DNA from: an uncultured Rhodospirillaceae bacterium
GTDB lineage: Bacteria; Pseudomonadota; Alphaproteobacteria; UBA9219
Direction of reading: 5' to 3'
Length of the DNA: 63,884 bases
Assembly (NCBI GenBank): GCA_964652235.1
Contig: CAZZDK010000012.1
Span: 1-63,884, forward strand
Shown here piece by piece: positions 614 to 16,441 of this stretch (position 1 is its first letter; every line of letters starts with the position of its first letter). The notes beneath the pieces were generated by a model. It worked only from the letters and a program-made list of their open reading frames with translations, did no database searches and was not told where the DNA came from. The translations under genes were made by a program, and so were the position numbers.

Positions 614-642
614 TTGACTTATTGGCCGCAAATCCCCATTCT
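614..642 (+). promoter_or_regulatory. Putative sigma70 promoter for C4-like cassette 1
   Basis: TTGACT-17 bp-CATTCT, 7 nt before the first hairpin. Confidence 0.5.
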
Positions 643-649
643 CCTCTCA

Positions 650-842
650 GAGGCGGCAAAAAACCGTCTTCGGGGTGTAGTAACCTCTCCAACAGCGGTG
701 CTTTGTGTTGCCGTTACCAACACTGCCCTCAGCCTATGGCTGGGAGGCAGTGGCGCATGTCCAAGCCTCACGGCTAAAGGCCATTGCAGTCGTCTGTTGG
801 CGATTTACTAACTCCCAGCCACCAGAGGTTTCCCCTCTGGTC
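650..842 (+). ncRNA. C4-type antisense RNA cassette (upstream target boxes plus antisense RNA), copy 1
   Basis: TAGTAA (678-683) complementary to TTACTA (805-810); CCAACAG (689-695) complementary to CTGTTGG (794-800); stems GGCTGGGAG/CTCCCAGCC and GCAGTGGC/GCCATTGC; homologous to 13656-13860. Confidence 0.75.
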
Positions 843-875
843 GGCTTACCTCTTTGGGTCTGGCTGGGGGATTGC

Positions 876-2474
876 GTGAGGAAAATTTCATATTTAGACG
901 GGCTGCGGGGTTTTGCCGCGCTTCAAGTTGTTTTGGTTCATTACCTTTCCGTTTTTCTCCCTTCTGAGAATTGCAGCCCCTTTTGGTTTTGCTGGCAACA
1001 ATGGATGCGGGAACGGTTTTTGTTCTTTCCCGTTGATGGCCTGATGGCTGTTTCCCTGTTTTTTGTCCTGAGCGGCTATGTCCTTACAAAATCCTTTGCA
1101 CAGACGCGGGACAAGCCTTTCCGCAACATATTCAAACGCTGGGCGCGGTTGCAAATTCCCGTTTTCTTTGCCCTTGCGCTGGCCTTTGGCTTGTTTTCTC
1201 TTTTTGGCTTTGTCCATCATGAAGCCGTTATCTTGAACAATAGCCAGAATTATGCGCGGCAATTTTGGGCTATCTCACCAACCTTTGAAAGCCTCTTGCA
1301 GGAGGCCTTTTCTGACTCTCTCCTGACGGGCTATCAAAACAGCTCCCTTTTCATCGGATTTGGCGGGGATTTCTTTTCAAGCGCCCAAACCTTAAGCCCT
1401 GCCTTTTGGAGCCTGAACATTGAGTTTTGGGGTTCCATGCTCATCATTTTATTGGCTTATCTGCGCCCCTATATCCTGCCGCATTTTATCACCATCATGC
1501 TTTGCTTTCTGTTTTTCCCGATGCACAATTTAATCCTTTTTGTTGCGGGGCATCTTCTGGCCTGTGCCACGGAAGGGGAAGAAAAAGAGCCGCCTTTATC
1601 TACGCACCTGACCCGAAACATTGGCGGCTCGGCCTTGGTTCTTTTTGGCGTTCTTATCAGCGTGTGGCGAGAGGATGCTATTTCAGAAAATGTCTTTTTT
1701 GCGCTGAACAGCCTAACCTATTTTCCGGCGCAGTCGCCATTTCATTTTGCTGGGATGGTTGCCGCGCTGTTTATCTTCCTTGGCGTGTTTATATCCCCAT
1801 GGTTCCACGCGCTCTTTAATCTCGCGCCGTTTCAAAAACTGGGGTGGATTTCTTTCGGCCTCTTTCTTTTGCATTTTCCAATTTTGCTGACAGTCACGGC
1901 TTTTCTGCAAGTTCATTTGCATCAGCTTTTGGGTTATGGCGCGGGGGCGGTCATATCCGCCAGCCTTGGGCTTGTGGTCACATTCAGAATCGCCGCCACA
2001 TTCACCAAATGGGTTGATGCGCCAGCCATCCGCTTGAGCCGATATATCGGCGGCAATCAGGAGGCCGCAAAGCCAGAGGAACAACCACCGCGCACAGCCT
2101 ATCAAAAGAAAGGGCTGATGAGGCCAAATGAGCAAGAATTTTTCGGACGGCTAACCCGCGCCTTGCCCGAATATCATATTTTTTCTCAAGTTGCCCTTAA
2201 CGCTCTGCTTGATGCTAAAGAAGGCTTGCATTGGCGTGATAGACTCATAACCAGAAATCATTTTGATCGGAAGATTGCCGATTACGTCATTTGCGCCCGT
2301 CAGACTTTTGACGTGGTTGCCATCGTGGAATTGGACGACATAACGCACGATACGGAAAAAGACGAAAAGCGTGATGCCATGCTCAAAGAAGCGGGTTATC
2401 GGATCATCCGTTATCAGTCACGGGCAAAGCCGACAGAAAAAGAAATTGCGGCTGCGTTTGCTTCTCCCGCCTAA
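876..2474 (+). CDS. Acyltransferase-3 (OafA/Oac-like) fused to a C-terminal DUF2726-like domain
   Basis: LDGLRGFAAL, VSLFFVLSGY, WSLNIEF motifs and many TMs; C-terminal ADYVIC...IVELDD.TH...D..RD..L..AG; GTG start at 876 after GGGGG. Confidence 0.85.
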   Translation: MRKISYLDGLRGFAALQVVLVHYLSVFLPSENCSPFWFCWQQWMRERFLFFPVDGLMAVSLFFVLSGYVLTKSFAQTRDKPFRNIFKRWARLQIPVFFALALAFGLFSLFGFVHHEAVILNNSQNYARQFWAISPTFESLLQEAFSDSLLTGYQNSSLFIGFGGDFFSSAQTLSPAFWSLNIEFWGSMLIILLAYLRPYILPHFITIMLCFLFFPMHNLILFVAGHLLACATEGEEKEPPLSTHLTRNIGGSALVLFGVLISVWREDAISENVFFALNSLTYFPAQSPFHFAGMVAALFIFLGVFISPWFHALFNLAPFQKLGWISFGLFLLHFPILLTVTAFLQVHLHQLLGYGAGAVISASLGLVVTFRIAATFTKWVDAPAIRLSRYIGGNQEAAKPEEQPPRTAYQKKGLMRPNEQEFFGRLTRALPEYHIFSQVALNALLDAKEGLHWRDRLITRNHFDRKIADYVICARQTFDVVAIVELDDITHDTEKDEKRDAMLKEAGYRIIRYQSRAKPTEKEIAAAFASPA

Positions 2475-3391
2475 TGCAAGGTGTGCGCGGCTGGTTTTCT
2501 GCCACGCGGCGCGGGCGTTTTCGGCGCTGCGGGGGTGGCATAAGAAGCCTTAAATTTGCTGATAAGCGCCTCTTTTTCCGCTTCACGGATTGACTTGTCA
2601 CGCAACACTTTCTGATGCGCGGGGCTTTTCGCCACAGGCGTTCCCATGAAAATCTGATCGTATTGATAAAGCTCTTTCCGATCCAGATAATCCGCATAAA
2701 TGTCGGCGTCTTTTTCTTTTCTTGCTTTGTGTAGTCTTTGGCGCAATTCGGCCAAGCAAATGGCGCGATAAACCCTTTCATAGTTTCCGCTTGCATAAAT
2801 CTTGCGGTATTTGTCAATGGAAACGCCGTTAATGCTCTCAATATCTTTGTTGGCAAGCAGTTCGGCAACGAGCGTTGCGGCCTCAACAGGAAATAGGCTG
2901 CGGTCGCACATACCGTGCATTTCTGTCTCACAGAAAACGCGGTCACGCTCCCCGCCACAAACGCATGTTTGAACGTCGCCAGACGCTGTGCGGATAAAGA
3001 GGGCTGAGGCAAAAGCGGTGATTTCCTTGGTGTCCGCTTTGAATTGATCTTCGTTAAATACGCCTGTCGTCGTATCTGTATGGACTTCTTTAAACCAGTC
3101 ATACAGTCTGTTTGTTACAAACAGAAAATCACCGATGGGCGTGTCATCAAGCCTTATTGCATCCCATTCTTTTGATTGTCCGTCGGCTCGTTTTGAATTT
3201 CTTATTCTTGCGCCGATGGTCGGTCGGGGCTTCGTCGGTGTTTCTTCCAAATATTTTGAATTTGGCCCCGTATAAAGCTGGATGCGGCCATCATGCGGGA
3301 ATGCTTTTTCTAAACCGCCAAGTCTGACGATTTCCTTGAGAATAAGGTCAAAAATTTCTTTTGGGGTTGTTTTTCCCTCAAACATAATCAT
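2471..3391 (-). CDS. Putative NAD(P)+ glycohydrolase toxin (Tox-ARC/Tne2-like fold)
   Basis: Ordered motifs LYTG, LDDTPIG, AS..F...ASGDV, RVF.ETE, L.NKDIESING resemble the Tox-ARC pattern. Confidence 0.55.
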   Translation of the reverse strand: MIMFEGKTTPKEIFDLILKEIVRLGGLEKAFPHDGRIQLYTGPNSKYLEETPTKPRPTIGARIRNSKRADGQSKEWDAIRLDDTPIGDFLFVTNRLYDWFKEVHTDTTTGVFNEDQFKADTKEITAFASALFIRTASGDVQTCVCGGERDRVFCETEMHGMCDRSLFPVEAATLVAELLANKDIESINGVSIDKYRKIYASGNYERVYRAICLAELRQRLHKARKEKDADIYADYLDRKELYQYDQIFMGTPVAKSPAHQKVLRDKSIREAEKEALISKFKASYATPAAPKTPAPRGRKPAAHTLH

Positions 3392-3405
3392 GGCGCGTAC
3401 TCCCC

Positions 3406-3870
3406 TTAGCGAGGTTGCGCGTCTGATTTTATCTGCGGGTGTGATCCCGCATCCTCTATTGGTCGTGGGGGATAAAAGCGGATAAGTTCACGCTTGAATG
3501 AAACTGGGGAACCTTGTTTTGCGGCCTCAGCATCTTTCTTTATCAAGGCCTCAAATTGTCTCACGAGCACGTCATGATCTTCAACAGTCAGCGGGTGGGA
3601 TACCAAATCAACAACTGTATTAGGTTGCCCATGTCCAGACCGTTCAGATAAGTCCACAGTAAACTTGCAATAATAAGCTTCTCTTAAGTCATGAACGTAT
3701 ACCGTGACACCGTTTTCTTTTCTTGTGCTGCTAGGGGCATAAACCTCACGGCCATGGATGCGGTAAACAACCCCACCAGGGCGCACGCCATGTTCAACAA
3801 CTTCAATTTCTCGTTCGGTCTGTGCCACAGAGAAAAACCCTAAAATCTTTTTGATAACTGACTTCAGCAT
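3406..3870 (-). CDS. Putative immunity protein (Imm74-like)
   Basis: 14 bp upstream of the putative toxin on the same strand; GGVVYRIHGREV...VYV...PLT.ED...LV pattern. Confidence 0.4.
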   Translation of the reverse strand: MLKSVIKKILGFFSVAQTEREIEVVEHGVRPGGVVYRIHGREVYAPSSTRKENGVTVYVHDLREAYYCKFTVDLSERSGHGQPNTVVDLVSHPLTVEDHDVLVRQFEALIKKDAEAAKQGSPVSFKRELIRFYPPRPIEDAGSHPQIKSDAQPR

Positions 3871-4011
3871 AGCGTCCCCCTGTGGGCTGGTAAAATGATT
3901 TCGTGGCCTGTTAATTGTTGCGCGTTGCGCTAAATTCCTTTTCGTCTGCTAACGGATGATAGCAAAAATCCGGCCTCAAAACAATTTTGTTATTAGTTTC
4001 AATGGCTTAGC

Positions 4012-4026
4012 TTAACCATTTGTTAA
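4012..4026. promoter_or_regulatory. CtrA-type box TTAA-N7-TTAA
   Basis: TTAA CCATTTG TTAA; TTAACCAT half-sites recur at 4084 and 4444. Confidence 0.5.
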
Positions 4027-4149
4027 TAAATAGAGCCTGTTAACTCTTTTATTCAACAAAAGCGCAGGGTTGAGAATTTTCTCTTAACCATGTTGCCGCT
4101 GTCCCGCTGGTGACGGTAGAGGGAAGCGGGTGCCGTTCAGGGCTTCTTT

Positions 4150-4425
4150 CACGAAGACAAGGGCGGACTATCCGCAAAGGCTGGCAGTGCAGTAGCCTCA
4201 CGCCGTCCCTTGCCCGCGCTTGCGCGGGTCGGCGGGTTCATCCCCGCCGAGGACGTGAGGCGTTGTCCCGATGGTGACGCAAGCGCCGTCCCGATCTCTC
4301 CGCAAGGGCGATGTTTCCGCGTTGGAGCTTCCCGCCGCGCCCGACGCTCAGGGCTCCCGCCCGCGAGGGCGGGATGAGCGGAGGAGCGGCGGAACAGACC
4401 CCCCGTGTCTATAACATGGGGGGTC
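4150..4425 (+). other. Putative rolling-circle origin/oriT: GC-rich hairpin cluster plus Rep_trans/MOB_T-type nick hairpin
   Basis: GACCCCCCGTGT-CTATA-ACATGGGGGGTC (4397-4425) resembles the Tn916/ICEBs1 CCCCCC...TAACAGGGGGG nic hairpins; several small hairpins upstream. Confidence 0.7.
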
Positions 4426-4460
4426 ACAGATACATTCTTCCTCTTAACCATCAAAAAACA

Positions 4461-4490
4461 TTGACAGAGGACATTCTCTGTCCTTATGGT
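4461..4490 (+). promoter_or_regulatory. sigma70 promoter with a dyad operator in the spacer; probably leaderless transcript
   Basis: TTGACA-18 bp-TATGGT; AGGACA-N5-TGTCCT in the spacer; ATG 6 nt after the -10. Confidence 0.65.
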
Positions 4491-4496
4491 GCCGCC

Positions 4497-5030
4497 ATGA
4501 CTGATGAAACATACACACTCAACGAAGTTGCTGTGCGTCTGAGCCTTTCAAAGAAGGATCAGGCCGTTGCGCTGCTCACGCGCAAGGTCAAGCATTGGAC
4601 AAATTATGATTTACTGAACACGATTGGGGAGAAGCACACGGGCACGGGGCGCAATCGGCAGTATAAACGAGATGAGGTTATTTGTGCCGCTTATCTCAAC
4701 GAGCTTTCAAAGTTTGGCCTCACCATCGGCGGCCTAAAAGATTTTCGTGAAGAGTATGACAAGTGGATGAAAAGCGCCTCCAAGCGTAAACTGTTGCAAG
4801 GCGGAGCGACCGAAGATGATGACGGCATTTATAAAGGGGAAATCGGCGGCTATATCCTTTATCAAGGCTGGTCTGGCGACGATGAGACTAACGGGAAGTT
4901 CCTGTTCGTTGATGATCGGTTCTTGCAGCAGAAACTTTTGGGGCAGTTCCCGCCTGACATGAAACCGCAATATTTTGCCAGCGTCCTGCTTTTGAACTGC
5001 CAAGAAATCGTTGAGCGCCTAAAACTCTAA
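4497..5030 (+). CDS. MerR-like winged-HTH regulator
   Basis: YTLNEVA...RKVKHW...LL...GTGRNRQY pattern. Confidence 0.65.
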   Translation: MTDETYTLNEVAVRLSLSKKDQAVALLTRKVKHWTNYDLLNTIGEKHTGTGRNRQYKRDEVICAAYLNELSKFGLTIGGLKDFREEYDKWMKSASKRKLLQGGATEDDDGIYKGEIGGYILYQGWSGDDETNGKFLFVDDRFLQQKLLGQFPPDMKPQYFASVLLLNCQEIVERLKL

Positions 5031-5061
5031 CCCCTTTTTTTTAATCTAGCGAGGTCACAGG

Positions 5062-6150: not shown

Positions 6151-6325
6151 CGGAAATCTTGTTTTGAGCCTTGTTTACAGGAACGGGGCACGTCCGGCAG
6201 AAATCCAGTTGCTTTTGTCGTGTTTATCCGAGATTCTTAAGGAAATGCAGTTTGCAGAAAGTGAAGATGAAAATGAGAGTAGCTCTTTATGCCCGTGTGT
6301 CAACGACACGCCAAGCGGAGAATGA
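6143..6325 (+). CDS. Small protein overlapping the recombinase start (candidate directionality factor)
   Basis: Overlaps both the rep stop and the recombinase start; function inferred from position only. Confidence 0.4.
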   Translation: MSDGNLVLSLVYRNGARPAEIQLLLSCLSEILKEMQFAESEDENESSSLCPCVNDTPSGE

Positions 6326-7862
6326 ATTATCCATTCCCGACCAGTTGCGCCAAATGCGTGAATGGTGCAAGCGCAACGGGCATATCGTCGCCCATGAATA
6401 TGTAGAGGCTGGCGCAACCGCGACGGATGACAAGAGGCCGGAGTTTCAAGAAATGATTGCGGCAGGAGTGGAAAAACACGCTCCTTTTCAGGCGGTCATT
6501 GTCCATAGCTATTCTCGTTTCTTCCGTGATCTGGCGCAAGCCGTTTTCTATGAACGTCGGTTGAATAAGTCGGGGGTTGATCTTGTTTCTATCACACAGG
6601 AAACAGGCAACGATCCGATGGGGCAGCTTTTCCGCCATTTGGTCATGATGTTTGACGAATACCAAAGCAAAGAAAACGCCAAGCACACCTTGCGCGGCAT
6701 GAATGAAAATGCGCGGCAGGGATATTTTAACGGGGCTAAAGCCCCCTTTGGCTATCGGACAATTGATGCGGGACGCACGGGCGCACATGGGCGGCTGAAA
6801 AAGAAACTGGATATTGATCCCGCCGAGGCCGAGATTGTTCGGGAAATCTTTACACTCTACGTCCACGGCAAAGACGCGCCGCGTATTGGCATGAAAGAAA
6901 TTGCCAAAAACCTAAACGAACGCGGCCTTCTTATGCGCGGCAAACTCTGGCGCACTCAAAAGGTTTTTGAGGTGCTTTCCAGTCTCACATATATGGGCTT
7001 GCACGTCTTTAACAAGACGGACAGCAGGACGCGGCGGATCAAGCCGGAAAGTGACTGGATCAAGGTTCCTGTTCCTGCTGTCATTGATCTGGCTCTTTTT
7101 GAACAAGCAACCAAGCTGCGCGGCGCGTTCTCTCCCAAGCGGTGTGCTCCGCGTCGTGAAACGTCCTCAACACTTTTGACAGGCATTTTGAAGTGTGATT
7201 GCTGCGGTTCTGGCATGACCATCACCACGGGCAAAGGCGGGCGCTATAAATATTACAAATGCACCAACCGCATGAGCAAGGGCAATGCCTCTTGCCCCTC
7301 CCGTAACATTCCCGCCGATAAGCTGGATGGGCTTGTTTTGGATGCCTTCCGGCAGAAGGTCTGTGCCCCTGATTATTTGAAGGGGCTGCTTAACGACCTC
7401 CGCGCCGAAATGGATAAGGGCGGTGGGGCAGATAAAGGACGGATCAAAAAACTTGAAGCCGAGATTAAAAAAGTTGAGCAAGCCCAAAACCGTCTCATTG
7501 ATGCGGTTGCCTCTGGCGTATTAGATAAAGATATGGTCGGAGATAAGGCGCACCAGAACAAAGCCCGAAAAGAAAGCCTCCTTCTTGAAATTGCCGCCCT
7601 TAAGCGCAAACAACAAATGCCGCTAGCCGTTATCTCTCCCCAGAAGATAGATGCCTTCACCCGCGTGATCCGCGACCGCCTGACGGAGCCTTCCGCGTTC
7701 TCCCGCGCCTATCTTAAGGCCGCTGTCGGTGAAATCAGGATAAGGGACGACGAAATGACGATCCGAGGCTCTCGGTCGTCTATGGTGGGTCTTATTTCAA
7801 ATGGAGGTCATATTAACGTGGGCGAAGTGCCCACATTCATACAGGAATGGCGTCCCCGATAG
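6267..7862 (+). CDS. Large serine recombinase (integrase)
   Basis: YARVST catalytic Ser, SRF.R, APFGY, Zn ribbon CDCCG...YYKC...C, coiled coil. Confidence 0.95.
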   Translation: MKMRVALYARVSTTRQAENELSIPDQLRQMREWCKRNGHIVAHEYVEAGATATDDKRPEFQEMIAAGVEKHAPFQAVIVHSYSRFFRDLAQAVFYERRLNKSGVDLVSITQETGNDPMGQLFRHLVMMFDEYQSKENAKHTLRGMNENARQGYFNGAKAPFGYRTIDAGRTGAHGRLKKKLDIDPAEAEIVREIFTLYVHGKDAPRIGMKEIAKNLNERGLLMRGKLWRTQKVFEVLSSLTYMGLHVFNKTDSRTRRIKPESDWIKVPVPAVIDLALFEQATKLRGAFSPKRCAPRRETSSTLLTGILKCDCCGSGMTITTGKGGRYKYYKCTNRMSKGNASCPSRNIPADKLDGLVLDAFRQKVCAPDYLKGLLNDLRAEMDKGGGADKGRIKKLEAEIKKVEQAQNRLIDAVASGVLDKDMVGDKAHQNKARKESLLLEIAALKRKQQMPLAVISPQKIDAFTRVIRDRLTEPSAFSRAYLKAAVGEIRIRDDEMTIRGSRSSMVGLISNGGHINVGEVPTFIQEWRPR

Positions 7863-7924
7863 GATTCGAACCTACGGCCCCAAGTTTAGGAAACTTGTGC
7901 TCTATCCAACTGAGCTACGGGGAC
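7848..7924 (-). tRNA. tRNA-Arg(CCT)
   Basis: GTCCCCG acceptor stem, CAAGT-TTCCTAA-ACTTG anticodon arm, GTTCGAATC, encoded CCA. Confidence 0.97.
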
Positions 7925-7992
7925 TTGTCCATTTTTGTGCCACCAAAAGGAGGCGTAACGGCCTAAAATACAGGCCAAAACTTGCGAAAGCG

Positions 7993-8021
7993 TTTATGCC
8001 TCATTCCAGCGCGGCCTGCAA
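7993..8021 (-). promoter_or_regulatory. Putative promoter of the intact tRNA-Arg
   Basis: Minus strand TTGCAG-17 bp-CATAAA; shares TGAGGCATAAA with the promoter at 16442-16470. Confidence 0.6.
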
Positions 8022-8109
8022 GTAAATCGGCGAATTCGGAGGCTTTTCTGCTTTTTGGTATAGGGTTACGCTTCACTATAACGAAAGACACGGGAGACGG
8101 GGCCTGTCG

Positions 8110-8901
8110 ATGAATGCAAGTGCTAAAGTCTGGCAAGGAGTACTGGAAGAGTTTAATAGCGAGACCGCGTATTGGGCGCAGTATTCCTTGCATCCGATTG
8201 GTCGGGCTAAGCATTTTGCCCCTTGGGAAGGGTTTGCCGCAGACGGAAAGTTTGTTGCTTCTGGTGCTTTGACCGAGGCGCAGAAGCATTACCCGTATGT
8301 CGAGGGGCTTGAGGATTCAATCAACGAAGCGTTGCGCTGGATGAAGCGCCCTCCTGCTCAATTGAGGGAGGGGCTTAAGCGTCTGTCTGCTGGGAAACAG
8401 CCTGACGACCTTTTTGCCATTTTCAAACTATATGGTGATTTCAGGGAACATCTCGCCGTTTTATACGCTCGCGATCCAGGCCATGCAGGATTCCCAACCC
8501 AAAGAGGAAGTAGTCAAGCACCCCAGAGAAAAAGCGGACAGGCAAAGCGGAAAAACGGCGATCAAAAAAAATCATATAAACTGAAATGCTTTGCCGCCAG
8601 CTTTATGATGGCTGTAATCAGAACTCGCGGATGCACCATTAAGGACGGGATTATAGAAGCCCGGCATTGGCTTGAAGATTTTGCGGCAAATATCGTTTTA
8701 GGAAAAAAGAAAGCGCCAAAGGAATTTGCTGATTACGATTTTAATGTGCTGTTGCAAAAGCTTCCAAAGAAAATGGGGCAAAGCGAACGGGCATCCTATC
8801 AATTACACGATAAGTTCTGCAAAGAGCTTACCGCACCTCATTTAGATGAATGGGTTGATGAGGTTTTGGTGGCAAAGATTCAGACACTTTCCCTTTTCTG
8901 A
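8110..8901 (+). CDS. Hypothetical protein
   Basis: 263-aa ORF with GGAG upstream, co-oriented with the replication module. Confidence 0.6.
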   Translation: MNASAKVWQGVLEEFNSETAYWAQYSLHPIGRAKHFAPWEGFAADGKFVASGALTEAQKHYPYVEGLEDSINEALRWMKRPPAQLREGLKRLSAGKQPDDLFAIFKLYGDFREHLAVLYARDPGHAGFPTQRGSSQAPQRKSGQAKRKNGDQKKSYKLKCFAASFMMAVIRTRGCTIKDGIIEARHWLEDFAANIVLGKKKAPKEFADYDFNVLLQKLPKKMGQSERASYQLHDKFCKELTAPHLDEWVDEVLVAKIQTLSLF

Positions 8902-8981
8902 CCCTAGGTCGGACCCCGGTTGCGCCGAACATAAGAGCCTAGGTGTTACAGATAGCTCCATTGAAACAAATGGAGGTCCCT

Positions 8982-9209
8982 ATGCCTGAAATACCACAAA
9001 ACACCAACCCACCAGAAAGAATGTTCACTATTGGTCAAGCGGCAGACCTTTTGGGTATTCCGCGCTGGAAGCTTTATCGCGCCGTAAAATACGGTCTCGT
9101 TCCCTGCCACCGGATTTTGAACTCGAGAAAGTTGGTTCGCCTATCTGAGATAGAGGCGGCCATTCAACAGTATCAATATTTTCCCAGAATAAATTGGAGG
9201 GACCAATGA
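8982..9209 (+). CDS. Excisionase-like HTH protein
   Basis: FTIGQAADLLGIPRWKLYR...G.VP; GGAGG RBS; ATGA overlap with the next gene. Confidence 0.8.
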   Translation: MPEIPQNTNPPERMFTIGQAADLLGIPRWKLYRAVKYGLVPCHRILNSRKLVRLSEIEAAIQQYQYFPRINWRDQ

Positions 9210-11725
9210 GCAACGTTGTCAACAAAGATCAAATCGAGCGGTTCATTGCCACTCGCTATCCCGCCGATCATGACGGTTATAAAGTTCTGTGGAGCCGCCA
9301 GCAACAAGGCAAAACCGGATTCTACGGCGCGGATGAAACCGACGCGTTGAGCGAATCTATTGCAAAGCGCGGCGCAACAGAAGACCTTTATTTGCCTGTC
9401 GGGCTTCAGCGCGAAAAGTTGCCGCCGACCGAACGCGGAAAAACGGAAGGGGTTGTTTCTGTCTCCGGGCTCTTTGCGGATATCGACACGCAAATCGGGA
9501 AGGATGTGGATCGGGGCTATTGCCGCGACAACGAAGAGGCGCTCACAATTCTGCGGCAGTTTAAGCCTTTTCCTTCCATTATTGTCAATTCCGGCAACGG
9601 GCTTCAGGCACACTGGCTTTTCGACTCTCCGGTATTGCTAGAGTCTGCGGGCGACCGCGAACGCGTTCAGGCCGTCTTCCGCGCCTTTCAGAAAAAGTTG
9701 CGTGAACACTTTGCTGCACAAGGCAAGGTCATCGACAGTGTGCATGACCTGGCCCGAGTATTTCGCATTCCAGGGACGTTCAATCATAAGTGGGGCGAGC
9801 CAAAGCCTGTTACGGCGTTGGAATACCACGAGGACGCGAGATATGGCTTTTCGGAAATCGAGGCCATTGTGCAAGATGTCCTTGCGCCCGAACCGGCCAC
9901 GAGTGACGAGGACAGCGATTTTCCTCTGGCCGATCACAATAAGATTGTGAAGGGGTGCCCTTGGTACGGCGCGTGCGTCAAAAATCCTGAAAGCTGCAGC
10001 GAGCCGAACTGGTACGCCGCCGCTTCGATCACAAGCCGGTGTGAGGACGGGCGTCACAAGTTCCATGCCTTCAGCCATAAACACCCAAAATACACCGAGG
10101 CGGAAGCTAACCAAAAGTTTGATCGCGGTTTTCAGGAGGCGGGCCCGCGCACCTGTAAGGCGATCTGCGAGGATCTTGGCAACGAGGCCTACTGCAAAAA
10201 CTGCCCCCATTTCGGCAAGATCACATCGCCGATTCTGCTGGGGCAGAAGAAAAAGCGGCAAGAAGCGGCAAAAGACAAAGCTATCGCCGCAATTCTGGAA
10301 TCGGCGGAATTGTTTCATGATGCCGGGGGAACCGCCTTCATGACGACAAAGGACGCCAATGGGGTCGAACGGACGCATATTATCAACTCATCCGGCGGCA
10401 AGAACCAAATACGACATGCCCACTATTTGAAGACTGGAAAATCTTTACCGGCACAGGCCGTAAGTGATGTCGCCGGTCTTTTGGAGGCCAAGGCCTTGTT
10501 CACGGGACCATGCGAGGAGGTATTCATTCGCATGGGAGGGCATGACGGCAATATATACATTGATCTCGGTGACGAGGCGGGGTCGGTCGTTTGCATTACG
10601 CCTGATGGTTGGGATGTCAGACAGGAAAGTCCGATAAAGTTTCTGAGGCCAAAGGGCTTGACCGCTCTGCCGATGCCGGACAAGAACGGGGACGTTCATC
10701 TGTTTCGCGAAATTCTTGGGCTCCCCGAGGAAGTTTGGATGGGCTTGCTTGCGTTTATGGTGAGTTGCACCCATCCGAAAGGCCCTTACTTCCATTTGAT
10801 GATTGAAGGTGAACAAGGAAGCGGAAAAACCTTTGCCTCATCTTGTGTGAAGCGGGTGATCGATCCGGCAATCGCACTTCGGACCATCATACCCAAAAAT
10901 GTACGCGATATGATGGTGATCGCTGACACAAACCGTCTTTTGTCATTTGACAATATGTCGCAAATCTCAGGTGATATGTCGGACGTTTTGTGTACGTTGG
11001 CGACAGGCGGAGGATTGATCGGGCGCAAACTGTTCACGGATGGCGATCCGTTCATCATGAACTGCACGCGGCCTGTAATCATGAACGGGATCACAAGTAT
11101 GATCTATCGTCCGGATTTGTTGGATCGCACGCTTCCGGTTTTCTTCATTGCCCGTGCAGAAGAAGGCAAGATAGCTGAAGAGGAGTTGTTGGCGAAGTTC
11201 AACAAAGCCCTGCCGCGCATTCTTGGTGGGCTTTACGCCATCCTTTCGGCGGCCTTGCGTAACAAGGACAAGGTTCAGGCTCCAACAAATATCCGTATGG
11301 CAGACTGCGCCCTGTGGCTCTGTGCGGCGGAACCTGCAACGGGCTTGCCCGAGGGAGCGTTCGTAAAGGCAATCGTTGCCAGCCAAAAGACCCTTGTGGT
11401 CGAGCAGATGGTAACGCACCCAGCCGTTAGGAAGCTCTTCGAAATCCTGAAAAACGGGGCTTACGAGGGAACGCTTGGCCAATTGCATGATCGTGTTTGT
11501 TCCAATCTCAGCCCCAAGGACAAGGAGATTGTTGGGCAAACCGCATCCGGGTTCTCGAACAAACTAAAGCGCCTGAAGTCTTCTTTGAAGGCTGTCGGGA
11601 TCGAGTTTGAGTTTGGAGGGAAAACCCGAACCGGCAAGATGGTGCGCTTTTGGCTTAACGAAAACGCTATTGAGGATGGCCCTGAGGATGAGGAGGAACC
11701 CCTGATCACAAACAGACAGTATTAG
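9206..11725 (+). CDS. Primase (RepB'-type AEP)-helicase fusion
   Basis: ADID, SGNGLQAHW, RVFRIPGT.N.K; Cys-rich linker; Walker A GEQGSGKT, FDN, DLLDR. Confidence 0.85.
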   Translation: MSNVVNKDQIERFIATRYPADHDGYKVLWSRQQQGKTGFYGADETDALSESIAKRGATEDLYLPVGLQREKLPPTERGKTEGVVSVSGLFADIDTQIGKDVDRGYCRDNEEALTILRQFKPFPSIIVNSGNGLQAHWLFDSPVLLESAGDRERVQAVFRAFQKKLREHFAAQGKVIDSVHDLARVFRIPGTFNHKWGEPKPVTALEYHEDARYGFSEIEAIVQDVLAPEPATSDEDSDFPLADHNKIVKGCPWYGACVKNPESCSEPNWYAAASITSRCEDGRHKFHAFSHKHPKYTEAEANQKFDRGFQEAGPRTCKAICEDLGNEAYCKNCPHFGKITSPILLGQKKKRQEAAKDKAIAAILESAELFHDAGGTAFMTTKDANGVERTHIINSSGGKNQIRHAHYLKTGKSLPAQAVSDVAGLLEAKALFTGPCEEVFIRMGGHDGNIYIDLGDEAGSVVCITPDGWDVRQESPIKFLRPKGLTALPMPDKNGDVHLFREILGLPEEVWMGLLAFMVSCTHPKGPYFHLMIEGEQGSGKTFASSCVKRVIDPAIALRTIIPKNVRDMMVIADTNRLLSFDNMSQISGDMSDVLCTLATGGGLIGRKLFTDGDPFIMNCTRPVIMNGITSMIYRPDLLDRTLPVFFIARAEEGKIAEEELLAKFNKALPRILGGLYAILSAALRNKDKVQAPTNIRMADCALWLCAAEPATGLPEGAFVKAIVASQKTLVVEQMVTHPAVRKLFEILKNGAYEGTLGQLHDRVCSNLSPKDKEIVGQTASGFSNKLKRLKSSLKAVGIEFEFGGKTRTGKMVRFWLNENAIEDGPEDEEEPLITNRQY

Positions 11726-11735
11726 GTCAGCAGTC

Positions 11736-11856
11736 TGTGACGATGTGATGCATGTGATGGCCCTTTCGCTTCTCTCGTTAGGCAGATGATGCCCAGCGGG
11801 TCGGCGAAGGGGGGCGAGGGGCTTTCGTGGATCATCACCATCATCACACCATCACA
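11736..11856. repeat. Converging TGTGAYG iterons, putative origin
   Basis: Three TGTGA(C/T)G at 11736-11760 and three inverted CATCAC(A) at 11833-11856. Confidence 0.65.
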
Positions 11857-11928
11857 CCAATAATTGTGTGGCCACTATTTGCCGTGTTTTTCTTGGAAAC
11901 CGGAGGCCATTTGTAAAAGGAGGAGAAG

Positions 11929-13221
11929 ATGGGAGCCGTTAATATCAGCAAGCGCAACATGACGCGCAAGACTCGCTCTGGGGGTGCGGTCGTTCTGCAA
12001 CGCTATGTCCTGAGCTACACCGACCCGAGAACGGGCAAGCGCATGCAGAAATTCTTTGAACGTCAGAAGGACGCGCAGACGCATCAATCCAAAATCATGT
12101 CCGACCTGCATCTGGGCGTCTGTGCGGACGAGCGGAAAGTGCCGACCATTGCCGAGGCGTTCGATAACTGGATCGACGACAGGCGCGGCCAAGTCAAAAA
12201 GACGACCATAGATGGTTACGCTTGTTACCGCCCGTGCATCGTCGGGCCGCTGCTTGCAGGAACGGCAGAGCAGCGCATGGTCTATGCCCGCACGGGCAAG
12301 GTGCCGAAGGGCCTGAAGCTCCTGCCCATGCTGGGCAACAAAAAGGTGACAGCCCTCACAACGGCGGACATTCGCGCATGGCAGCGTTTGCTGTGTGATA
12401 CCGTCGGCCCCTACATGACGAAGAAGGCGCAGTCCTATCTGAAAACCTTGATGGGGCTGGCGGCGGAGGATCACAACCTCCGACTGGCACCGATGCCGCG
12501 TCGCCTCGGTCGGGGCAAGCCCAAGGTGGAAAAGGTCATCCTCCTGCCGGAGCAAGTGCAAAAGCTACTGAACCACGCGAAGCAGGACCGCGATTACGGC
12601 GTTTATTACGCTTTCCCGTTCTTGGTTGGAACGCGCCCGTCCGAACAGCTTGGTTTGCTGTGGGAGGACGTCGATTTTGAAAACCGCGTGATCCACATTC
12701 GCCGGATGCAGGAAAAGGACGGCAGGTTGTGCGAGACCACCAAAACTTCGGCGGGCATGCGCGATGTGCCGATGTCGGCCATGCTTTACGACATGATGCT
12801 TGAATGGAAAGACCGCTGTCCGAGGCGCGAGGGTTGCCCGCATCGCGTCTTTCCGAATATCGGCTTTCGCAGCTTTCACAACAAACCTCGAAAGGGCGGC
12901 GGGAACTTTCTGCTCTATGGCAACTTCCGTGCGCGGGTCTGGGTGCGGGTTTTGAAGAAGCTTGGCTTGCCGCCCGTCACGCCGCACAGCGCCCGCCATT
13001 GCTTTATCTCAACCCTGCAAGCGCAAGGCGTGGAGATCGGGCTTGTCTCTAAGTTGGCCGGACACGCGAACGCCAGTATTACGCTCGGCCATTACACGCA
13101 CGCCGTCCGAGGCGGCGAGGATGCGGTCGAGAGGCTGTCGCGGGCCTTCCTGCCGGAGACGGCGCAGAGTGTGTCCGCGAGCCAAGGAAAGGCCCTCTCT
13201 GGTACAGGCGGCGCGGCCTGA
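11929..13221 (+). CDS. Tyrosine recombinase/integrase
   Basis: GTRPSE, TKT, HSARH, GH, HY catalytic set; AGGAGG RBS. Confidence 0.95.
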   Translation: MGAVNISKRNMTRKTRSGGAVVLQRYVLSYTDPRTGKRMQKFFERQKDAQTHQSKIMSDLHLGVCADERKVPTIAEAFDNWIDDRRGQVKKTTIDGYACYRPCIVGPLLAGTAEQRMVYARTGKVPKGLKLLPMLGNKKVTALTTADIRAWQRLLCDTVGPYMTKKAQSYLKTLMGLAAEDHNLRLAPMPRRLGRGKPKVEKVILLPEQVQKLLNHAKQDRDYGVYYAFPFLVGTRPSEQLGLLWEDVDFENRVIHIRRMQEKDGRLCETTKTSAGMRDVPMSAMLYDMMLEWKDRCPRREGCPHRVFPNIGFRSFHNKPRKGGGNFLLYGNFRARVWVRVLKKLGLPPVTPHSARHCFISTLQAQGVEIGLVSKLAGHANASITLGHYTHAVRGGEDAVERLSRAFLPETAQSVSASQGKALSGTGGAA

Positions 13222-13655
13222 GCCTCGCGCGCGAAGGATGAGGTTTTAAGGAGCCGCCCCGCGTGGCCCTTCAGAAGAACGGCAAGACACGAGGTTGAAA
13301 TAGCCCGCTCGCTCTGTTGCACTACCAAGATGACCCCTTGCACCCTATTGCTGGACAGGGCCAACAAATGAACTCCTGCTCCCTTGGCACATGATCCGCG
13401 CCCCGAAACGCGGCTCTTGAGGCCGCGCCGGACGCCAAAACAACGTTGCGTTCGCCGCCGCGTTTGCAGAAAATGAGGATTGCTGGATTTCGCAAGATAG
13501 AAGGGACCCACGGAATGCCCAGCGCAAAGACATTTTTGGCATGCCCACAGTACCCCATAGAGCGAGTTGACTTATGCTCACGGTGATCGGGAATTCCGAA
13601 GCCCTGTAAATACAAAACATTGACGCAAATAGGCTTGCCGTGCTTTTCTTGGCTC

Positions 13656-13860
13656 GAGGGCAGGAAAAAGCTGCCTTCCGGGGTGTAGTTGCCTCGTAGT
13701 TAGCGGTGCTTTGCGTTGCCGTTACCAACGCTGCCTTTCGGTCTCTTATGGCCGGGAGGCGGCGGCGTATGTCCAAGCCTCACGGCCAAAGGTCGTCGCG
13801 GTCGTCTAACTACGATCAACTAACTCCCGGTCGCCAGGGCACATGCCCCTGGCGGCTTTT
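13656..13860 (+). ncRNA. C4-type antisense RNA cassette, copy 2
   Basis: TAGTTG (13686-91) complementary to CAACTA (13817-22); CGTAGTTAG (13695-703) complementary to CTAACTACG (13806-14); stems covary with copy 1. Confidence 0.75.
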
Positions 13861-13881
13861 CTTCTTTTGGGGAGTTGGCCG

Positions 13882-14163: not shown

Positions 14164-14174
14164 CGGGGGGCCCC

Positions 14175-14492: not shown

Positions 14493-14497
14493 ATTAT

Positions 14498-16418: not shown

Positions 16419-16441
16419 TTAGAACATTTCGCGAGGGGGTC

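What the first reader, a model, noticed from the sequence alone, without database searches (positions are those of the whole stretch)
650..13860. Two C4-type antisense RNA switches with different codes, in front of envelope cargo on two unrelated elements
Seen: 650-842 and 13656-13860 are homologous and their stems covary (GTGTTG/CAACAC vs GCGTTG/CAACGC; GCAGTGGC/GCCATTGC vs GCGGCGGC/GTCGTCGC; ACCAGAGG/CCTCTGGT vs GCCAGGG/CCCTGGC). Two short upstream boxes differ between copies and each is matched by its own downstream complement (TAGTAA/TTACTA and CCAACAG/CTGTTGG vs TAGTTG/CAACTA and CGTAGTTAG/CTAACTACG). Known: this bipartite target/antisense logic is that of phage P1/P7 C4 and P4 CI RNAs, which control icd/ant or kil genes. 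Unusual: here the downstream genes are an O-acyltransferase fusion and a lipoprotein/membrane pair, and I see no clear second target pair at their RBS. Inference: a portable, non-cross-reacting RNA switch reused for cargo control, or RNAs acting in trans on incoming phages or satellites with matching boxes.
Basis: partly seen in the sequence, partly recalled or inferred. Interest (0 to 1): 0.82.

Follow-up and report, generated by a model that had tools for sequence, protein, structure and literature searches.

The report
Self-addressed C4-like RNA leaders
Two copies of a widespread, previously uncatalogued relative of the phage P1 C4 antisense RNA sit in front of envelope-protein genes on two mobile islands, each carrying its own private pair of matching address boxes.

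Summary
Windows 650-842 and 13656-13860 are two of five copies in this 1.9 Mb genome of one RNA family. I collected 46 more full copies from other genomes. A model built from them hits 34 of 61 related genomes, with up to 25 copies each.

The unit is an own promoter, a 5' hairpin, box a1 in a hairpin loop and single-stranded box b1. Then come a hairpin and a tRNA-acceptor-like C4-type domain (b' in a loop, a' in the junction, RCCA tail), followed 8-53 nt later by a gene. This is the layout of phage P1's a1b1-c4 unit. However, the Rfam C4 and c4-a1b1 models do not hit, and only sRNA-Xcc1 matches, below threshold.

The boxes pair in 93-96% of cells and carry 47 distinct codes in 49 copies. They diverge far faster than the backbone. 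No second (a2/b2) target exists downstream or elsewhere in the genome. The first downstream gene is an envelope protein in 44 of 51 copies.

Best reading: a processed C4-like RNA that addresses only its own leader, forming a private loop over cargo expression. Mechanism and direction are inferred; no RNA data could be obtained. It is a new variant of a known kind.

The parts
614..642 (+). Copy A promoter-like site: TTGACT (614-619), 17-nt spacer, CATTCT (637-642)
   Evidence: Read. TTGAC lies 32-36 nt before the 5' hairpin in 30 of 51 family copies. The strict sigma-70 consensus scan did not call it.
650..670 (+). Copy A 5' hairpin H0 (GAGGCGG / CCGUCUU)
   Evidence: In the minimum-energy fold. 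All 7 pairs show changes on both sides in the family; about 83% of cells are paired (helices 1-2). It has the same position and shape as the first hairpin of Rfam c4-a1b1 on phage P1.
672..687 (+). Copy A a1 hairpin: stem GGGG/CCUC with box a1 TAGTAA (678-683) in the loop
   Evidence: Stem paired in 98.5% of cells (helix 3). The a1:a' helix is paired in 95.9% of cells, and 5 of its 6 pairs change on both sides (helix 4).
689..695 (+). Copy A box b1 CCAACAG, single-stranded
   Evidence: b1:b' is paired in 92.6% of cells, and all 7 pairs change on both sides (helix 5).
696..734 (+). Copy A middle part: hairpin GUGUUG/CAACAC (705-723), a possible pseudoknot stem CGG/CCG (696-698 with 711-713), and a leader strand (722-734) complementary to the 5' strands of P1 and P2
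   Evidence: Hairpin: 78% of cells paired, 5 of 5 pairs with double changes. CGG/CCG is nearly invariant, so it is uninformative (helices 6-7). Leader helix: 84.6% paired against 35-70% in slid controls; 8 of 13 pairs have double changes.
738..824 (+). Copy A C4-like domain: P1 738-746 with 812-820; P2 747-787 holding the invariant motif AUGUCCAAGCCUCACGGC (757-774); P3 789-804 with b' CTGTTGG (794-800) in the loop; a' TTACTA 805-810; ACCA 821-824
   Evidence: Rfam sRNA-Xcc1 alignment at 738-828, 35.0 bits, below the cut-off of 53. Pair counts, helices 9-14. RCCA tail in 42 of 43 aligned copies. Model R1 scores 156.4 bits.
821..841 (+). Copy A hairpin after the CCA (ACCAGAGG / CCUCUGGU); no U-run follows
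   Evidence: The terminator scan does not call it. Part of the family lacks this hairpin, and there the gene starts right after the CCA.
862..2474 (+). Copy A cargo: Shine-Dalgarno-like GGCUGGGGG (862-870), GTG start at 876, 532-aa Acyl_transf_3 + DUF2726 fusion
   Evidence: Pfam: Acyl_transf_3 8.2e-19 and DUF2726 2.1e-17. The Shine-Dalgarno stretch is complementary to the P1 3' strand (-18.5 kcal/mol, second best of 47 partners).
13620..13648 (+). Copy B promoter-like site: TTGACG (13620-13625), 17-nt spacer, CTTTTC (13643-13648)
   Evidence: Read. Family position of TTGAC. Not called by the consensus scan.
13656..13703 (+). Copy B leader: hairpin H0 13656-13678; a1 hairpin 13680-13695 with a1 TAGTTG (13686-13691); b1 CGTAGTTAG (13695-13703)
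13750..13836 (+). Copy B C4-like domain: P1 13750-13758 with 13824-13832; b' CTAACTACG 13806-13814; a' CAACTA 13817-13822; GCCA 13833-13836
   Evidence: sRNA-Xcc1 alignment at 13750-13840, 35.9 bits. Model R1 scores 153.8 bits. Own antisense-to-target duplex -19.2 kcal/mol, against -5.0 to -7.8 with the other four targets in this genome.
13829..13867 (+). Copy B hairpin after the CCA, followed by a U-rich tail (terminator-like)
   Evidence: Called by the terminator scan: 11 pairs, tail TTTCTTCTTT.
13869..14492 (+). Copy B cargo: Shine-Dalgarno GGGGAG (13869-13874); 93-aa lipoprotein (13882-14163, lipobox LSAC); 105-aa membrane protein (14175-14492)
   Evidence: No Pfam, PHROG, PADLOC or NCBIfam family above threshold. 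A 65%-identical lipoprotein follows another copy, next to a 37%-identical integrase, in locus L023.
6171..7924 (.). End of element 1: large serine recombinase (6171-7862, +) abutting tRNA-Arg(CCT) (7848-7924, -)
   Evidence: Pfam Resolvase, Recombinase and Zn_ribbon_recom. tRNA.
7886..16470 (.). Element 2: excisionase-like 8943-9209, primase-like 9194-11725, tyrosine integrase 11929-13221, copy B with its cargo, and a type II restriction-modification pair (14498-15514 on the minus strand; 15595-16251 on the plus strand). It is bounded by a degenerate repeat of the tRNA 5' half (16380-16420) and of the upstream stretch (16442-16470).

Best explanation
Both loci are full members of one RNA family that forms the 5' leader of its own small transcription unit.

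The order of parts is:
1. a promoter;
2. a 5' hairpin;
3. a small hairpin showing box a1 in its loop;
4. single-stranded box b1;
5. a hairpin;
6. a short strand that can pair with the next stem;
7. a C4-type, tRNA-acceptor-like domain, consisting of closing stem P1, P2 with an invariant motif, P3 with b' in its loop, a' in the 3' junction, and an RCCA tail.

The ribosome binding site of a mostly envelope-protein gene follows 8-53 nt later.

This much is shown: the anatomy, its likeness to phage P1's a1b1-c4 unit, the private and fast-changing box codes, and the lack of any a2/b2 site.

The rest is inferred. The C4-like domain is cut out by RNase P and tRNA 3'-end processing. Its b'/a' then pair only with the a1/b1 of transcripts from the same cassette. 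Each cassette therefore runs a private feedback loop over its own RNA and its downstream gene, insulated from the 4 to 24 other cassettes in the cell. The unprocessed transcript, with boxes paired in cis and P1 held open by the leader strand, would be the inert form.

I cannot tell the direction of control. By analogy with P1 and P4 I lean towards repression, meaning dose-independent low expression of membrane cargo. Activation as in Gifsy-1 IsrK is the alternative.
For: Family and copy number:
- Five copies in the genome.
- 46 further full copies among 52 places holding an 18-nt core motif.
- Model R1 hits 34 of 61 related genomes, with up to 25 copies per genome.

Structure:
- 89.6% of cells are paired, against 75.0% in shuffles (0 of 500 as high) and 35-44% in slid controls.
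- G-U pairs are common in several pairs (for example GU in 33, 21 and 22 sequences). This fits an RNA read from this strand.

Same layout as phage P1:
- On P1, Rfam c4-a1b1 is a hairpin, then a hairpin with a1 in the loop, then b1.
- On P1, C4 is a closing stem with two hairpins, b' in the second loop, a' in the junction and a CCACC tail.
- RCCA is present in 42 of 43 copies and GG at the start of P1 in 41 of 49. RNase P processing of C4 and of P4 CI is in print (passages read).

Private codes:
- Duplex of the antisense part with its own target averages -17.2 kcal/mol, against -7.0 for cross pairs. The own target is the best partner in 41 of 49 copies.
- 47 distinct codes in 49 copies. All 5 copies of this genome, and all 13 copies from one metagenome-assembled genome, prefer their own target.
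- The boxes are the most variable columns: 1.0-1.5 bits, against 0.15-0.85 elsewhere except the P3 stem at 1.0.
- In 62 pairs of copies with 90-95% identical backbone, b1 identity is only 0.51.

No other target:
- None in the genome.
- None within 160 nt downstream: -12.0 for own against -11.9 for cross pairs.

Leader strand:
- An alternative helix between the leader strand and the 5' strands of P1 and P2 is paired in 84.6% of cells, and 8 of 13 pairs show double changes.
- The two states of copy A are near-isoenergetic: -105.1 and -103.6 kcal/mol.

Cargo:
- 44 of 51 first genes have a signal peptide, lipobox or several membrane spans. By the same rule, 395 of 1591 crude open reading frames in the genome do.

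Precedent:
- In Gifsy-1, the IsrK leader pairs in cis to give a translationally inactive mRNA, and also acts in trans on it (passages read).
Against: - There is no evidence that any small RNA is made. The only runs found are wastewater metagenome or metatranscriptome contigs covering fragments.
- Every complementarity found is inside one transcript, so a purely cis role is not excluded.
- In equilibrium folding of 45 copies, blocking a1/b1 or b'/a' did not raise the unpaired fraction of the Shine-Dalgarno stretch: 0.31 for the full length, 0.26 and 0.29 when blocked. For copies A and B nothing changed either. Only removal of everything up to the CCA raised it (0.48), mostly in one subgroup.
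- The specific fit between the P1 3' strand and the Shine-Dalgarno stretch is modest: -13.6 against -12.0 kcal/mol (0 of 5000 permutations). Related copies inflate such tests.
- With 47 codes in 49 copies, distinct codes within one genome are expected by chance. Only the speed of box change argues for selection.
- Rfam C4 and c4-a1b1 do not hit, and R1 scores P1 c4 at only 11.4 bits, E 0.64. Common descent with P1 C4 is therefore not shown.
- 2 of the 58 projected pairs are not supported (helix 8 and the first pair of helix 13).
Confidence: 0.55

Rival explanations
1. Cis-only device. The leader is a structured 5' untranslated region whose long-range a1b1:b'a' helix and tRNA-like domain only serve folding, processing and stability of the cargo mRNA. 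The domain would act as tRNA-like punctuation that sets a defined mRNA 5' end next to the ribosome binding site. No RNA acts in trans.
For: - All complementarity is intramolecular, and no other target exists.
- Removing everything up to the CCA is the only modelled change that frees the Shine-Dalgarno stretch (0.31 to 0.48).
- In one subgroup the Shine-Dalgarno stretch starts directly after the CCA.
- The nested order a1(b1...b')a' keeps the pairing intact under block exchange.
Against: - A structural helix should not be the fastest-changing part of the molecule, yet b1 identity is 0.51 at 92% backbone identity.
- a1 and b' are presented in hairpin loops, and b1 and a' as single strands. This is the layout of the trans-acting C4 and its targets.
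- The closest characterised relatives (C4, CI, IsrK) act in trans.
Confidence: 0.2
2. Immunity or exclusion in trans. The processed RNA mainly targets transcripts of incoming elements or phages that carry the same a1/b1 code, giving homo-immunity between related mobile elements as in P1/P7 and P4. The resident cargo merely rides on a promoter that is active in the integrated state.
For: - Homologous elements in different genomes share identical codes. The copy on contig C17 and locus L016 have a1 and b1 identity of 1.00.
- Copy B and locus L023 share the integrase and the lipoprotein.
- All five copies of this genome lie in mobile contexts: integrases, serine recombinases or a tail module.
- Fast box change is what heteroimmunity predicts.
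Against: - The gene downstream of the target is an envelope protein, not a replication or antirepressor gene. Silencing it in an incomer would not block that incomer.
- No match to the family in 50,697 phage records, 72,556 plasmid records or IMG/VR. The single IMG/VR stretch holding the 18-mer is not a member.
Confidence: 0.1
3. Type I toxin-antitoxin-like module. The small hydrophobic downstream protein is harmful, and the tandem C4-like RNA keeps its mRNA silent.
For: - Some cargo genes encode 43-65-aa single-span peptides.
- In Xanthomonas integron cassettes, sRNA-Xcc1 sits upstream of the toxin gene symE (passages read).
- The genes under C4, CI and IsrK control (icd, kil, anrP leading to antQ) are harmful to the cell (record annotation; passages).
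Against: - Most cargo genes have cleavable signal peptides or lipoboxes, or are large enzymes. Examples are the 532-aa acyltransferase fusion and proteins of 268, 404 and 577 aa.
- The RNA and the mRNA come from one promoter in a 1:1 ratio. No family hit to known toxins.
Confidence: 0.07
4. Classical P1-type immI operon. C4 RNA blocks translation of the next gene through a2/b2 at its ribosome binding site, and thereby controls an antirepressor.
For: The upstream half of the unit (a1, b1 and the C4-like domain) has the P1 layout.
Against: - No a2/b2 within 160 nt downstream in 49 copies, nor anywhere in the genome.
- The downstream genes are an acyltransferase fusion and a lipoprotein, not icd/ant.
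Confidence: 0.02

Closest known systems
Phage P1/P7 immI unit: a1, b1, c4 RNA, a2, b2, icd, ant (Rfam C4 RF01695 and c4-a1b1 RF03163, clan CL00128)
   Same: - The order of parts matches: promoter, hairpin, hairpin with a1 in the loop, single-stranded b1, a further hairpin, then an RNA with a closing stem, two inner hairpins, b' in the second loop, a' in the 3' junction and a CCA-type tail.
- In P1 the stretch just 5' of c4 can also pair with the 5' strand of the closing stem (seen by eye).
- Box sequence sets specificity.
   Different: - No a2/b2 and no icd/ant.
- The P1 hairpin after b1 is a terminator with a U-run. Here it has none.
- P1 is 9 bp here rather than about 17, and P2 is longer with an invariant motif.
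- Neither Rfam model hits. My model scores P1 c4 at 11.4 bits, E 0.64.
sRNA-Xcc1 (Rfam RF02221), on integron cassettes, transposons and plasmids in Xanthomonas and Xylella
   Same: - It is the only Rfam family that aligns end to end with the C4-like domain, with the same stem plan.
- It is multi-copy on islands, in tandem arrays in Xylella, and lies upstream of a gene (symE) in Xanthomonas cassettes (passages read).
   Different: - Scores are 35.0 and 35.9 bits, against a cut-off of 53.
- The one better match in this genome (contig C5, 49.6 bits) shows no a1b1-like boxes upstream (by eye).
- In the passages I read, no a1b1 leader is described for sRNA-Xcc1. The original 2011 paper was not held.
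Gifsy-1 IsrK / STnc1160 locus of Salmonella (Rfam isrK RF01394)
   Same: - The leader pairs in cis with a downstream part of the same transcript, giving a translationally inactive mRNA.
- The same leader sequence acts in trans on that mRNA.
- A processed stable RNA lies downstream of the leader (passages read).
- On P1, the isrK model overlaps a1b1 plus the terminator.
   Different: - IsrK's short form is made by a terminator after the boxes. Here there is no such terminator, so a short leader could arise only by processing.
- The isrK model does not hit.
- Folding gave no sign that box occupancy frees the ribosome binding site.
Satellite phage P4 CI RNA with seqA and seqC
   Same: - It is an RNase P-processed RNA whose antisense part matches a site upstream of itself in the same transcript (seqA). 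It is self-targeting and sets immunity specificity (passages).
- Element 2 here is P4-like in gene content: excisionase-like, primase-like and integrase genes.
   Different: - P4 also has a downstream site (seqC), and it controls replication genes by transcription termination.
- Here there is no downstream site and the cargo is an envelope protein.
- I did not fetch or compare the P4 sequence.
Acinetobacter baumannii 'Group 1' C4-like small RNAs (Microb Genom 2016, PMC5320573)
   Same: Many C4-like RNAs in one genome, processed from longer transcripts at a GG start, with the variable a' region proposed to set target choice (abstract and passages read).
   Different: - Those RNAs hit the Rfam C4 motif.
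- In the passages I read, no matched upstream a1b1 code per copy and no link to envelope cargo is reported.

Membership tests
C4 antisense RNA (Rfam RF01695) | Covariance model score at or above the gathering score (45 bits) | tested here: not met
   No hit at E <= 10 in 500-1000 or 13500-14000. None at E <= 1 in the whole genome. The same model gives 68.8 bits on phage P1.
C4 antisense RNA (Rfam RF01695) | Closing stem enclosing two hairpins, with b' in the loop of the second hairpin and a' in the 3' junction | tested here: met
   Pair counts on 49 copies, compared with the C4 consensus structure line on P1.
C4 antisense RNA (Rfam RF01695) | RNase P substrate: GG at the 5' end of the closing stem, RCCA-type 3' tail, and processing from a longer transcript | tested here: inconclusive
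   The sequence signs are present: RCCA in 42 of 43 copies and GG in 41 of 49. Processing itself is not testable here; the RNA runs gave fragments only.
C4 antisense RNA (Rfam RF01695) | Second target pair a2/b2 at the ribosome binding site of the next gene (icd/ant) | tested here: not met
   None in the genome. Own downstream 160 nt gives -12.0 kcal/mol against -11.9 for cross pairs. The downstream genes are an acyltransferase fusion and a lipoprotein.
c4-a1b1 (Rfam RF03163) | Covariance model score at or above the gathering score (46.7 bits) | tested here: not met
   No hit at the copies. The whole genome holds only three matches of 13.5-14.9 bits, all elsewhere.
c4-a1b1 (Rfam RF03163) | A hairpin, then a hairpin with a1 in its loop, then b1; both boxes complementary to a'/b' of the RNA downstream | tested here: met
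   Helices 1-5. Consensus structure on P1. Own duplex -17.2 against cross -7.0 kcal/mol.
sRNA-Xcc1 (Rfam RF02221) | Covariance model score at or above the gathering score (53 bits) | tested here: not met
   35.0 bits (738-828) and 35.9 bits (13750-13840), with E about 1e-4 on 501-nt searches. The same hits give 35.0 and 35.9 bits in the whole-genome search.
isrK (Rfam RF01394) | a1b1-type leader ended by an intrinsic terminator that yields a short RNA | tested here: not met
   No hit. The hairpin after b1 has no U-run.
P4 CI RNA immunity | Antisense part matched by an upstream site (seqA) and a downstream site (seqC) of the same transcript | tested here: inconclusive
   An upstream site is present and a downstream site is absent. 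The P4 sequence itself was not compared.
Type I toxin-antitoxin | A small toxic membrane peptide whose mRNA is bound by the RNA | not testable with these tools
   The cargo is mixed, from 43-aa peptides to a 577-aa protein. Toxicity is unknown.

The most novel reading that the evidence does not exclude
The family is a natural library of orthogonal, fast-evolving RNA address codes. Each cassette's processed C4-like RNA recognises only the leader of its own cassette. Dozens of cassettes (up to 25 in a 2 Mb genome) can then each meter a secreted or membrane protein without cross-talk. Selection keeps generating new codes by paired changes in b1/b' and a1/a'. This would be an RNA-based self/non-self system between mobile cassettes that has dropped the a2/b2 output arm of phage C4 altogether.
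Probability: 0.3. Interest if true: 0.8.

Novelty: new variant of a known kind. Interest (0 to 1): 0.6.

Why it matters
C4, CI and IsrK RNAs are known as immunity or antirepressor controls of a few enterobacterial phages and satellites. Multi-copy C4-like RNAs have been reported in Acinetobacter, and sRNA-Xcc1 arrays in Xylella.

This finding adds three things:
- A sequence-divergent branch that Rfam release 15 does not capture. It is common in small-genome Alphaproteobacteria: 34 of 61 relatives searched.
- A stripped-down logic in which the only partner of the antisense RNA is its own leader.
- A consistent link to envelope cargo on integrative elements.

The matched boxes change much faster than the rest of the RNA while keeping their pairing. 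If that reflects selection for private codes, the family is a ready-made set of dozens of orthogonal RNA-RNA pairs. It would also make testable an open question from P1 biology, namely what the a1/b1 sites are for.

For annotation, a covariance model of this family would label hundreds of 'intergenic' stretches and mark cargo genes of mobile islands.

Tried and rejected
Rfam
- At gathering thresholds on the whole window, Rfam finds three tRNAs, a fluoride riboswitch and SRP RNA. Nothing lies at the two loci.
- C4 and c4-a1b1 were searched in the whole genome. C4 gave nothing. c4-a1b1 gave three weak matches elsewhere, and that model also rings in 10 of 14 control genomes.

Second targets
- A search for a1..b1 with up to 4 mismatches, and for each box with up to 1 mismatch at 0-15 nt spacing, found only the copies themselves, their reverse strands and background-level near matches.

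Ribosome binding site switch
- Constrained and partition-function folding did not show that occupying the boxes frees the Shine-Dalgarno stretch. I therefore keep this only as a secondary idea, together with the modest own-versus-cross signal between the P1 3' strand and the Shine-Dalgarno stretch.

Expression
- One search for sequencing runs returned five wastewater runs holding 6-11% of the sampled words.
- Four of them, laid on 400-2600, gave 13 contig pieces in all. The pieces over 733-792 run on into unlike sequence, so they come from other family members.
- One metatranscriptome contig covers 895-1057 without a difference.
- Contigs cannot show ends, strand or level, and DNA carry-over is possible. 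This says nothing about a small RNA.

Other collections
- IMG/VR holds one stretch with the 18-mer, which model R1 aligns over only 23 nt (11 bits, E 0.8). It is not a member.
- blastn with 11-base words found no match in the plasmid or phage collections. This bounds sequence similarity only.

Cargo naming
- PHROGs, PADLOC, Pfam and NCBIfam gave no family for the lipoprotein, for the membrane protein (only two sub-threshold NCBIfam rows), or for the cargo of the copies on contigs C8 and C2, apart from a hemerythrin as third gene on C2.

Promoters
- The strict sigma-70 consensus scan did not call the promoters. The -35 evidence is the fixed position of TTGAC in 30 of 51 copies.

Rows dropped
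- Of the 52 places, 5 were judged chance matches because they have no family sequence around the 18-mer (L017, L047, L054, L059, L061). One is a copy cut off 3' of the motif (L026).
- L027 and L044 carry an extra stretch of about 78 nt after b1. They were left out of alignments A2 and A3, though their boxes do match.
- Six more atypical rows were left out of A3, the alignment used for the model.

Papers and tools
- Supplementary files of papers were not opened. The supplement of the 2010 Genome Biology paper describes c4-a1b1 and may bear on what is known about a1/b1.

Full report
**What is there**

They fold much better than shuffled versions (z -4.98 and -5.27, 0 of 200 shuffles as good).

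They are not a lone pair. A DNA search of the window's own 1.9 Mb assembly finds the same element three more times, on contigs C8, C17 and C2. All five align in register from a 5' hairpin to a CCA tail, and each has different box sequences.

**Family**

I scanned one genome for each of 185,579 species with an invariant 18-nt stretch of the RNA. It gave 52 places. Five are chance matches, one is a truncated copy, and 46 are full copies. Most come from alphaproteobacterial metagenome-assembled genomes, and two come from Rhodopseudomonas isolates.

A covariance model built from 43 copies (R1) finds exactly the five copies in the own genome, at 106-156 bits. It finds matches in 34 of 61 related genomes (24 of 44 among the near-complete ones), with up to 25, 16 and 10 copies per genome.

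The family was not found in the phage or plasmid collections by blastn. The single IMG/VR stretch holding the 18-mer is not a member.

**Anatomy**

On 49 aligned copies (A2) I projected a structure from copy A and counted pairs. Overall, 89.6% of cells are paired, against 75.0% in shuffles (0 of 500 as high) and 35-44% when partners are slid.

The parts, in order, are:
- A TTGAC box 32-36 nt before the RNA in 30 of 51 copies, followed 17 nt later by a weak -10. The strict consensus scan misses it.
- A 5' hairpin.
- A 4-bp hairpin (98.5% paired) that shows box a1 in its loop.
- Single-stranded box b1.
- A hairpin supported by double changes in 5 of 5 pairs.
- A C4-type domain:
  - closing stem P1;
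  - a long P2 with a nearly invariant motif (0.15 bits per column);
  - P3 with b' in its loop;
  - a' in the junction;
  - the P1 3' strand;
  - RCCA, present in 42 of 43 copies, with GG at the P1 start in 41 of 49.

Frequent G-U pairs fit an RNA read from this strand. Two of the 58 projected pairs are not supported (helix 8, and the first pair of helix 13).

The strand just before P1 can instead pair with the 5' strands of P1 and P2. That helix is paired in 84.6% of cells, against 35-70% in slid controls. 8 of its 13 pairs have double changes, and one column covaries with both partners. For copy A the two states differ by 1.5 kcal/mol.

**The boxes**

a1:a' pairs in 95.9% of cells and b1:b' in 92.6%. 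12 of the 13 pairs show changes on both sides, and most show three or four pair types.

- Duplex energy of the antisense part with its own target averages -17.2 kcal/mol, against -7.0 (sd 3.1) for other copies' targets. The own target is the best partner in 41 of 49 copies.
- There are 47 distinct codes in 49 copies.
- In this genome the five own duplexes are -14.6 to -21.0 kcal/mol, against -1.8 to -12.7 for cross pairs.
- In one metagenome-assembled genome, all 13 copies prefer their own target.

The boxes are the most variable columns of the RNA: 1.0-1.5 bits, against 0.15-0.85 elsewhere, with the P3 stem at 1.0. They also change far faster than the backbone. In 62 pairs of copies with 90-95% identical backbone, b1 identity is 0.51, and only 2 pairs share b1.

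Since almost all codes differ anyway, distinct codes within one genome are not in themselves evidence of selection. The speed of paired change is.

Two copies are mismatched: L039 in the a box and L050 in both boxes.

**Comparison with phage P1**

The annotated P1 record places a1, b1, c4, a2, b2 and icd in that order. On P1, the Rfam structure lines show that c4-a1b1 is a hairpin, then a hairpin with a1 in the loop, then b1. They also show that C4 is a closing stem with two hairpins, b' in the second loop, a' in the junction and a CCACC tail.

This is the same plan as here. In P1, too, the stretch just 5' of c4 can pair with the 5' strand of the closing stem (by eye).

Yet the Rfam models for C4, c4-a1b1 and isrK do not hit the window copies, even at E <= 10. 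R1 scores P1 c4 at only 11.4 bits.

The only Rfam match is sRNA-Xcc1, aligned end to end at 35.0 and 35.9 bits, against a cut-off of 53. So the family works like, and is built like, the C4 clan, but it is not a member by the curated models.

**The missing arm**

In P1, C4 acts on a2/b2 at the icd ribosome binding site. Here no second a/b pair exists anywhere in the assembly. Family-wide, the antisense part binds its own downstream 160 nt no better than other copies' downstream sequence (-12.0 against -11.9 kcal/mol).

**Cargo and context**

A gene starts 8-53 nt after the CCA stretch.

- Copy A leads a 532-aa Acyl_transf_3 + DUF2726 fusion.
- Copy B leads a 93-aa lipoprotein and a 105-aa membrane protein with no family assignment.
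- The C17 copy leads a weakly BamE-like lipoprotein and a membrane protein with a weak peptidoglycan-binding match.
- The C8 copy leads a four-span membrane protein.
- The C2 copy sits between a tape-measure gene and baseplate genes. It leads a 54-aa membrane peptide, a 71-aa protein and a hemerythrin.

By a simple hydrophobicity and lipobox rule, 44 of 51 first genes are envelope proteins, 4 are not, and 3 have no credible start. The same rule marks 395 of 1591 crude open reading frames in the genome.

Copy A lies on an island that ends with a large serine recombinase abutting tRNA-Arg(CCT). Copy B lies on the neighbouring island, which carries excisionase-like, primase-like and tyrosine-integrase genes and a restriction-modification pair. 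That island is bounded by a degenerate repeat of the tRNA 5' half.

Only one other locus (L023) shares copy B's integrase and lipoprotein. The other loci have unrelated flanks. The leader is therefore portable.

**How it most likely works**

This much is shown: the anatomy, the private fast-changing codes, the lack of any other target, and the link to envelope cargo on mobile elements.

The following is inferred from the C4 and CI literature (passages read) and from the RCCA and GG signs. The C4-like domain is excised by RNase P and tRNA 3'-end processing. Its b'/a' then meet a1/b1 of sibling transcripts, giving a loop that is private to each cassette. The precursor, with boxes paired in cis and P1 held open by the leader strand, would be the inert form.

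I cannot give the sign of the control.

- The Shine-Dalgarno stretch is complementary to the P1 3' strand more specifically than to other copies' strands (-13.6 against -12.0 kcal/mol, 0 of 5000 permutations). Copy A has the second-best and copy B the third-best score in its own row.
- Equilibrium folding of 45 copies shows no gain in Shine-Dalgarno accessibility when either box pair is blocked (0.31 unblocked, against 0.26 and 0.29). It shows a gain only when everything up to the CCA is removed (0.48), mostly in one subgroup and not in copies A or B.
- An IsrK-like activation switch is thus not supported by this test. Activation by processing remains possible.

**Rivals**

The rivals are a purely cis folding and processing device, immunity against incoming elements of the same code, a type I toxin-antitoxin-like module, and the classical P1 operon. 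The last is refuted by the missing a2/b2. The others are weighed in the fields above.

**What is known already**

- Multi-copy C4-like RNAs processed at a GG start are described for Acinetobacter baumannii (abstract and passages).
- sRNA-Xcc1 arrays on islands, and sRNA-Xcc1 upstream of symE in integron cassettes, are described for Xylella and Xanthomonas (passages).
- The cis and trans double role of an a1b1-type leader is shown for Gifsy-1 IsrK (passages).
- c4-a1b1 was named in 2010 (table entry seen; the supplement was not seen).

Full-text searches for 'c4-a1b1' (1 paper), 'sRNA-Xcc1' (24 papers), and 'C4 antisense RNA' with 'prophage' (5 papers) turned up no description of this alphaproteobacterial family, of self-only targeting, or of the envelope-cargo link. 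The library lacks most subscription journals.

**Verdict**

This is a real and abundant RNA family. It is a new variant of the C4 / sRNA-Xcc1 kind. Its mechanism is inferred and not shown.

Expression could not be tested. One search found only fragmentary wastewater contigs.

Noticed in passing
window 6171-8021 and 16380-16470: tRNA-Arg(CCT) (7848-7924, minus strand) is a hot spot with an island on each side. A degenerate copy of its 5' half (16380-16420, 80% identical to 7886-7926) and of the stretch upstream (16442-16470 against 7993-8021) marks the far end of the right-hand island. The serine recombinase reading frame overlaps the tRNA 3' end.
   Followed up: partly
window 14498-16251: A type II restriction-modification pair sits inside element 2. 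It consists of a C-5 cytosine methylase (minus strand, Pfam 1.6e-75) and an HNH protein that matches PADLOC type II restriction enzyme models (1.3e-20).
   Followed up: no
window 2471-3870 (minus strand): The gene pair of 306 and 154 aa has no family hit, but it has paralogs on contigs C19, C13, C8, C18 and C31 of the same genome (27-81% identity). On C8 it lies on the island that also carries a copy of the RNA.
   Followed up: partly
window 876-2474: This is an unusual fusion of a membrane acyltransferase (Acyl_transf_3, residues 5-366) with a C-terminal DUF2726 / DUF559-like domain (residues 412-527). tblastn found it at none of the other 46 family loci.
   Followed up: no
G000 contig C5 97388-97476 (minus strand); locus L007 1501-1589: This RNA is a closer match to Rfam sRNA-Xcc1 (49.6 bits, still under the cut-off of 53). 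By eye, no a1b1-like boxes complementary to its loop and junction appear in the 200 nt upstream.
   Followed up: partly
alignments A2 and A3, P2 region; in this genome the copies on contigs C8 and C2: A subset of copies carries an extra hairpin of about 25 nt inserted in P2, just before the invariant motif. These are the C8 and C2 copies and loci L018, L023, L024, L029, L033, L040, L056 and L057. The two window copies lack it.
   Followed up: no
loci L039 and L050; also L023 compared with copy A and the C8 copy: L039 has a mismatched a box, and L050 has both boxes mismatched. L023 combines the a box of window copy A with the b box of the C8 copy. This suggests that boxes are exchanged as modules. 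The nested order a1(b1...b')a' would keep the pairing intact under such block swaps.
   Followed up: partly
related genome G043, contig C39, 14762-15467: Two copies of the RNA start 553 nt apart on the same strand, forming a tandem array of RNA plus a small secreted protein. This resembles the sRNA-Xcc1 arrays reported for Xylella.
   Followed up: no
locus L063 (phage P1) 3320-3360: In phage P1, the stretch just 5' of c4 (UUACGCCC) is complementary to the 5' strand of the c4 closing stem (GGGCGUGA). This is the same alternative pairing as in the family here. I saw no mention of it in the passages I read.
   Followed up: no
window 52508-52570 (minus strand) and 27244-27337 (plus strand): A fluoride riboswitch (58.5 bits) and a bacterial small SRP RNA (44 bits). 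Both are ordinary.
   Followed up: no
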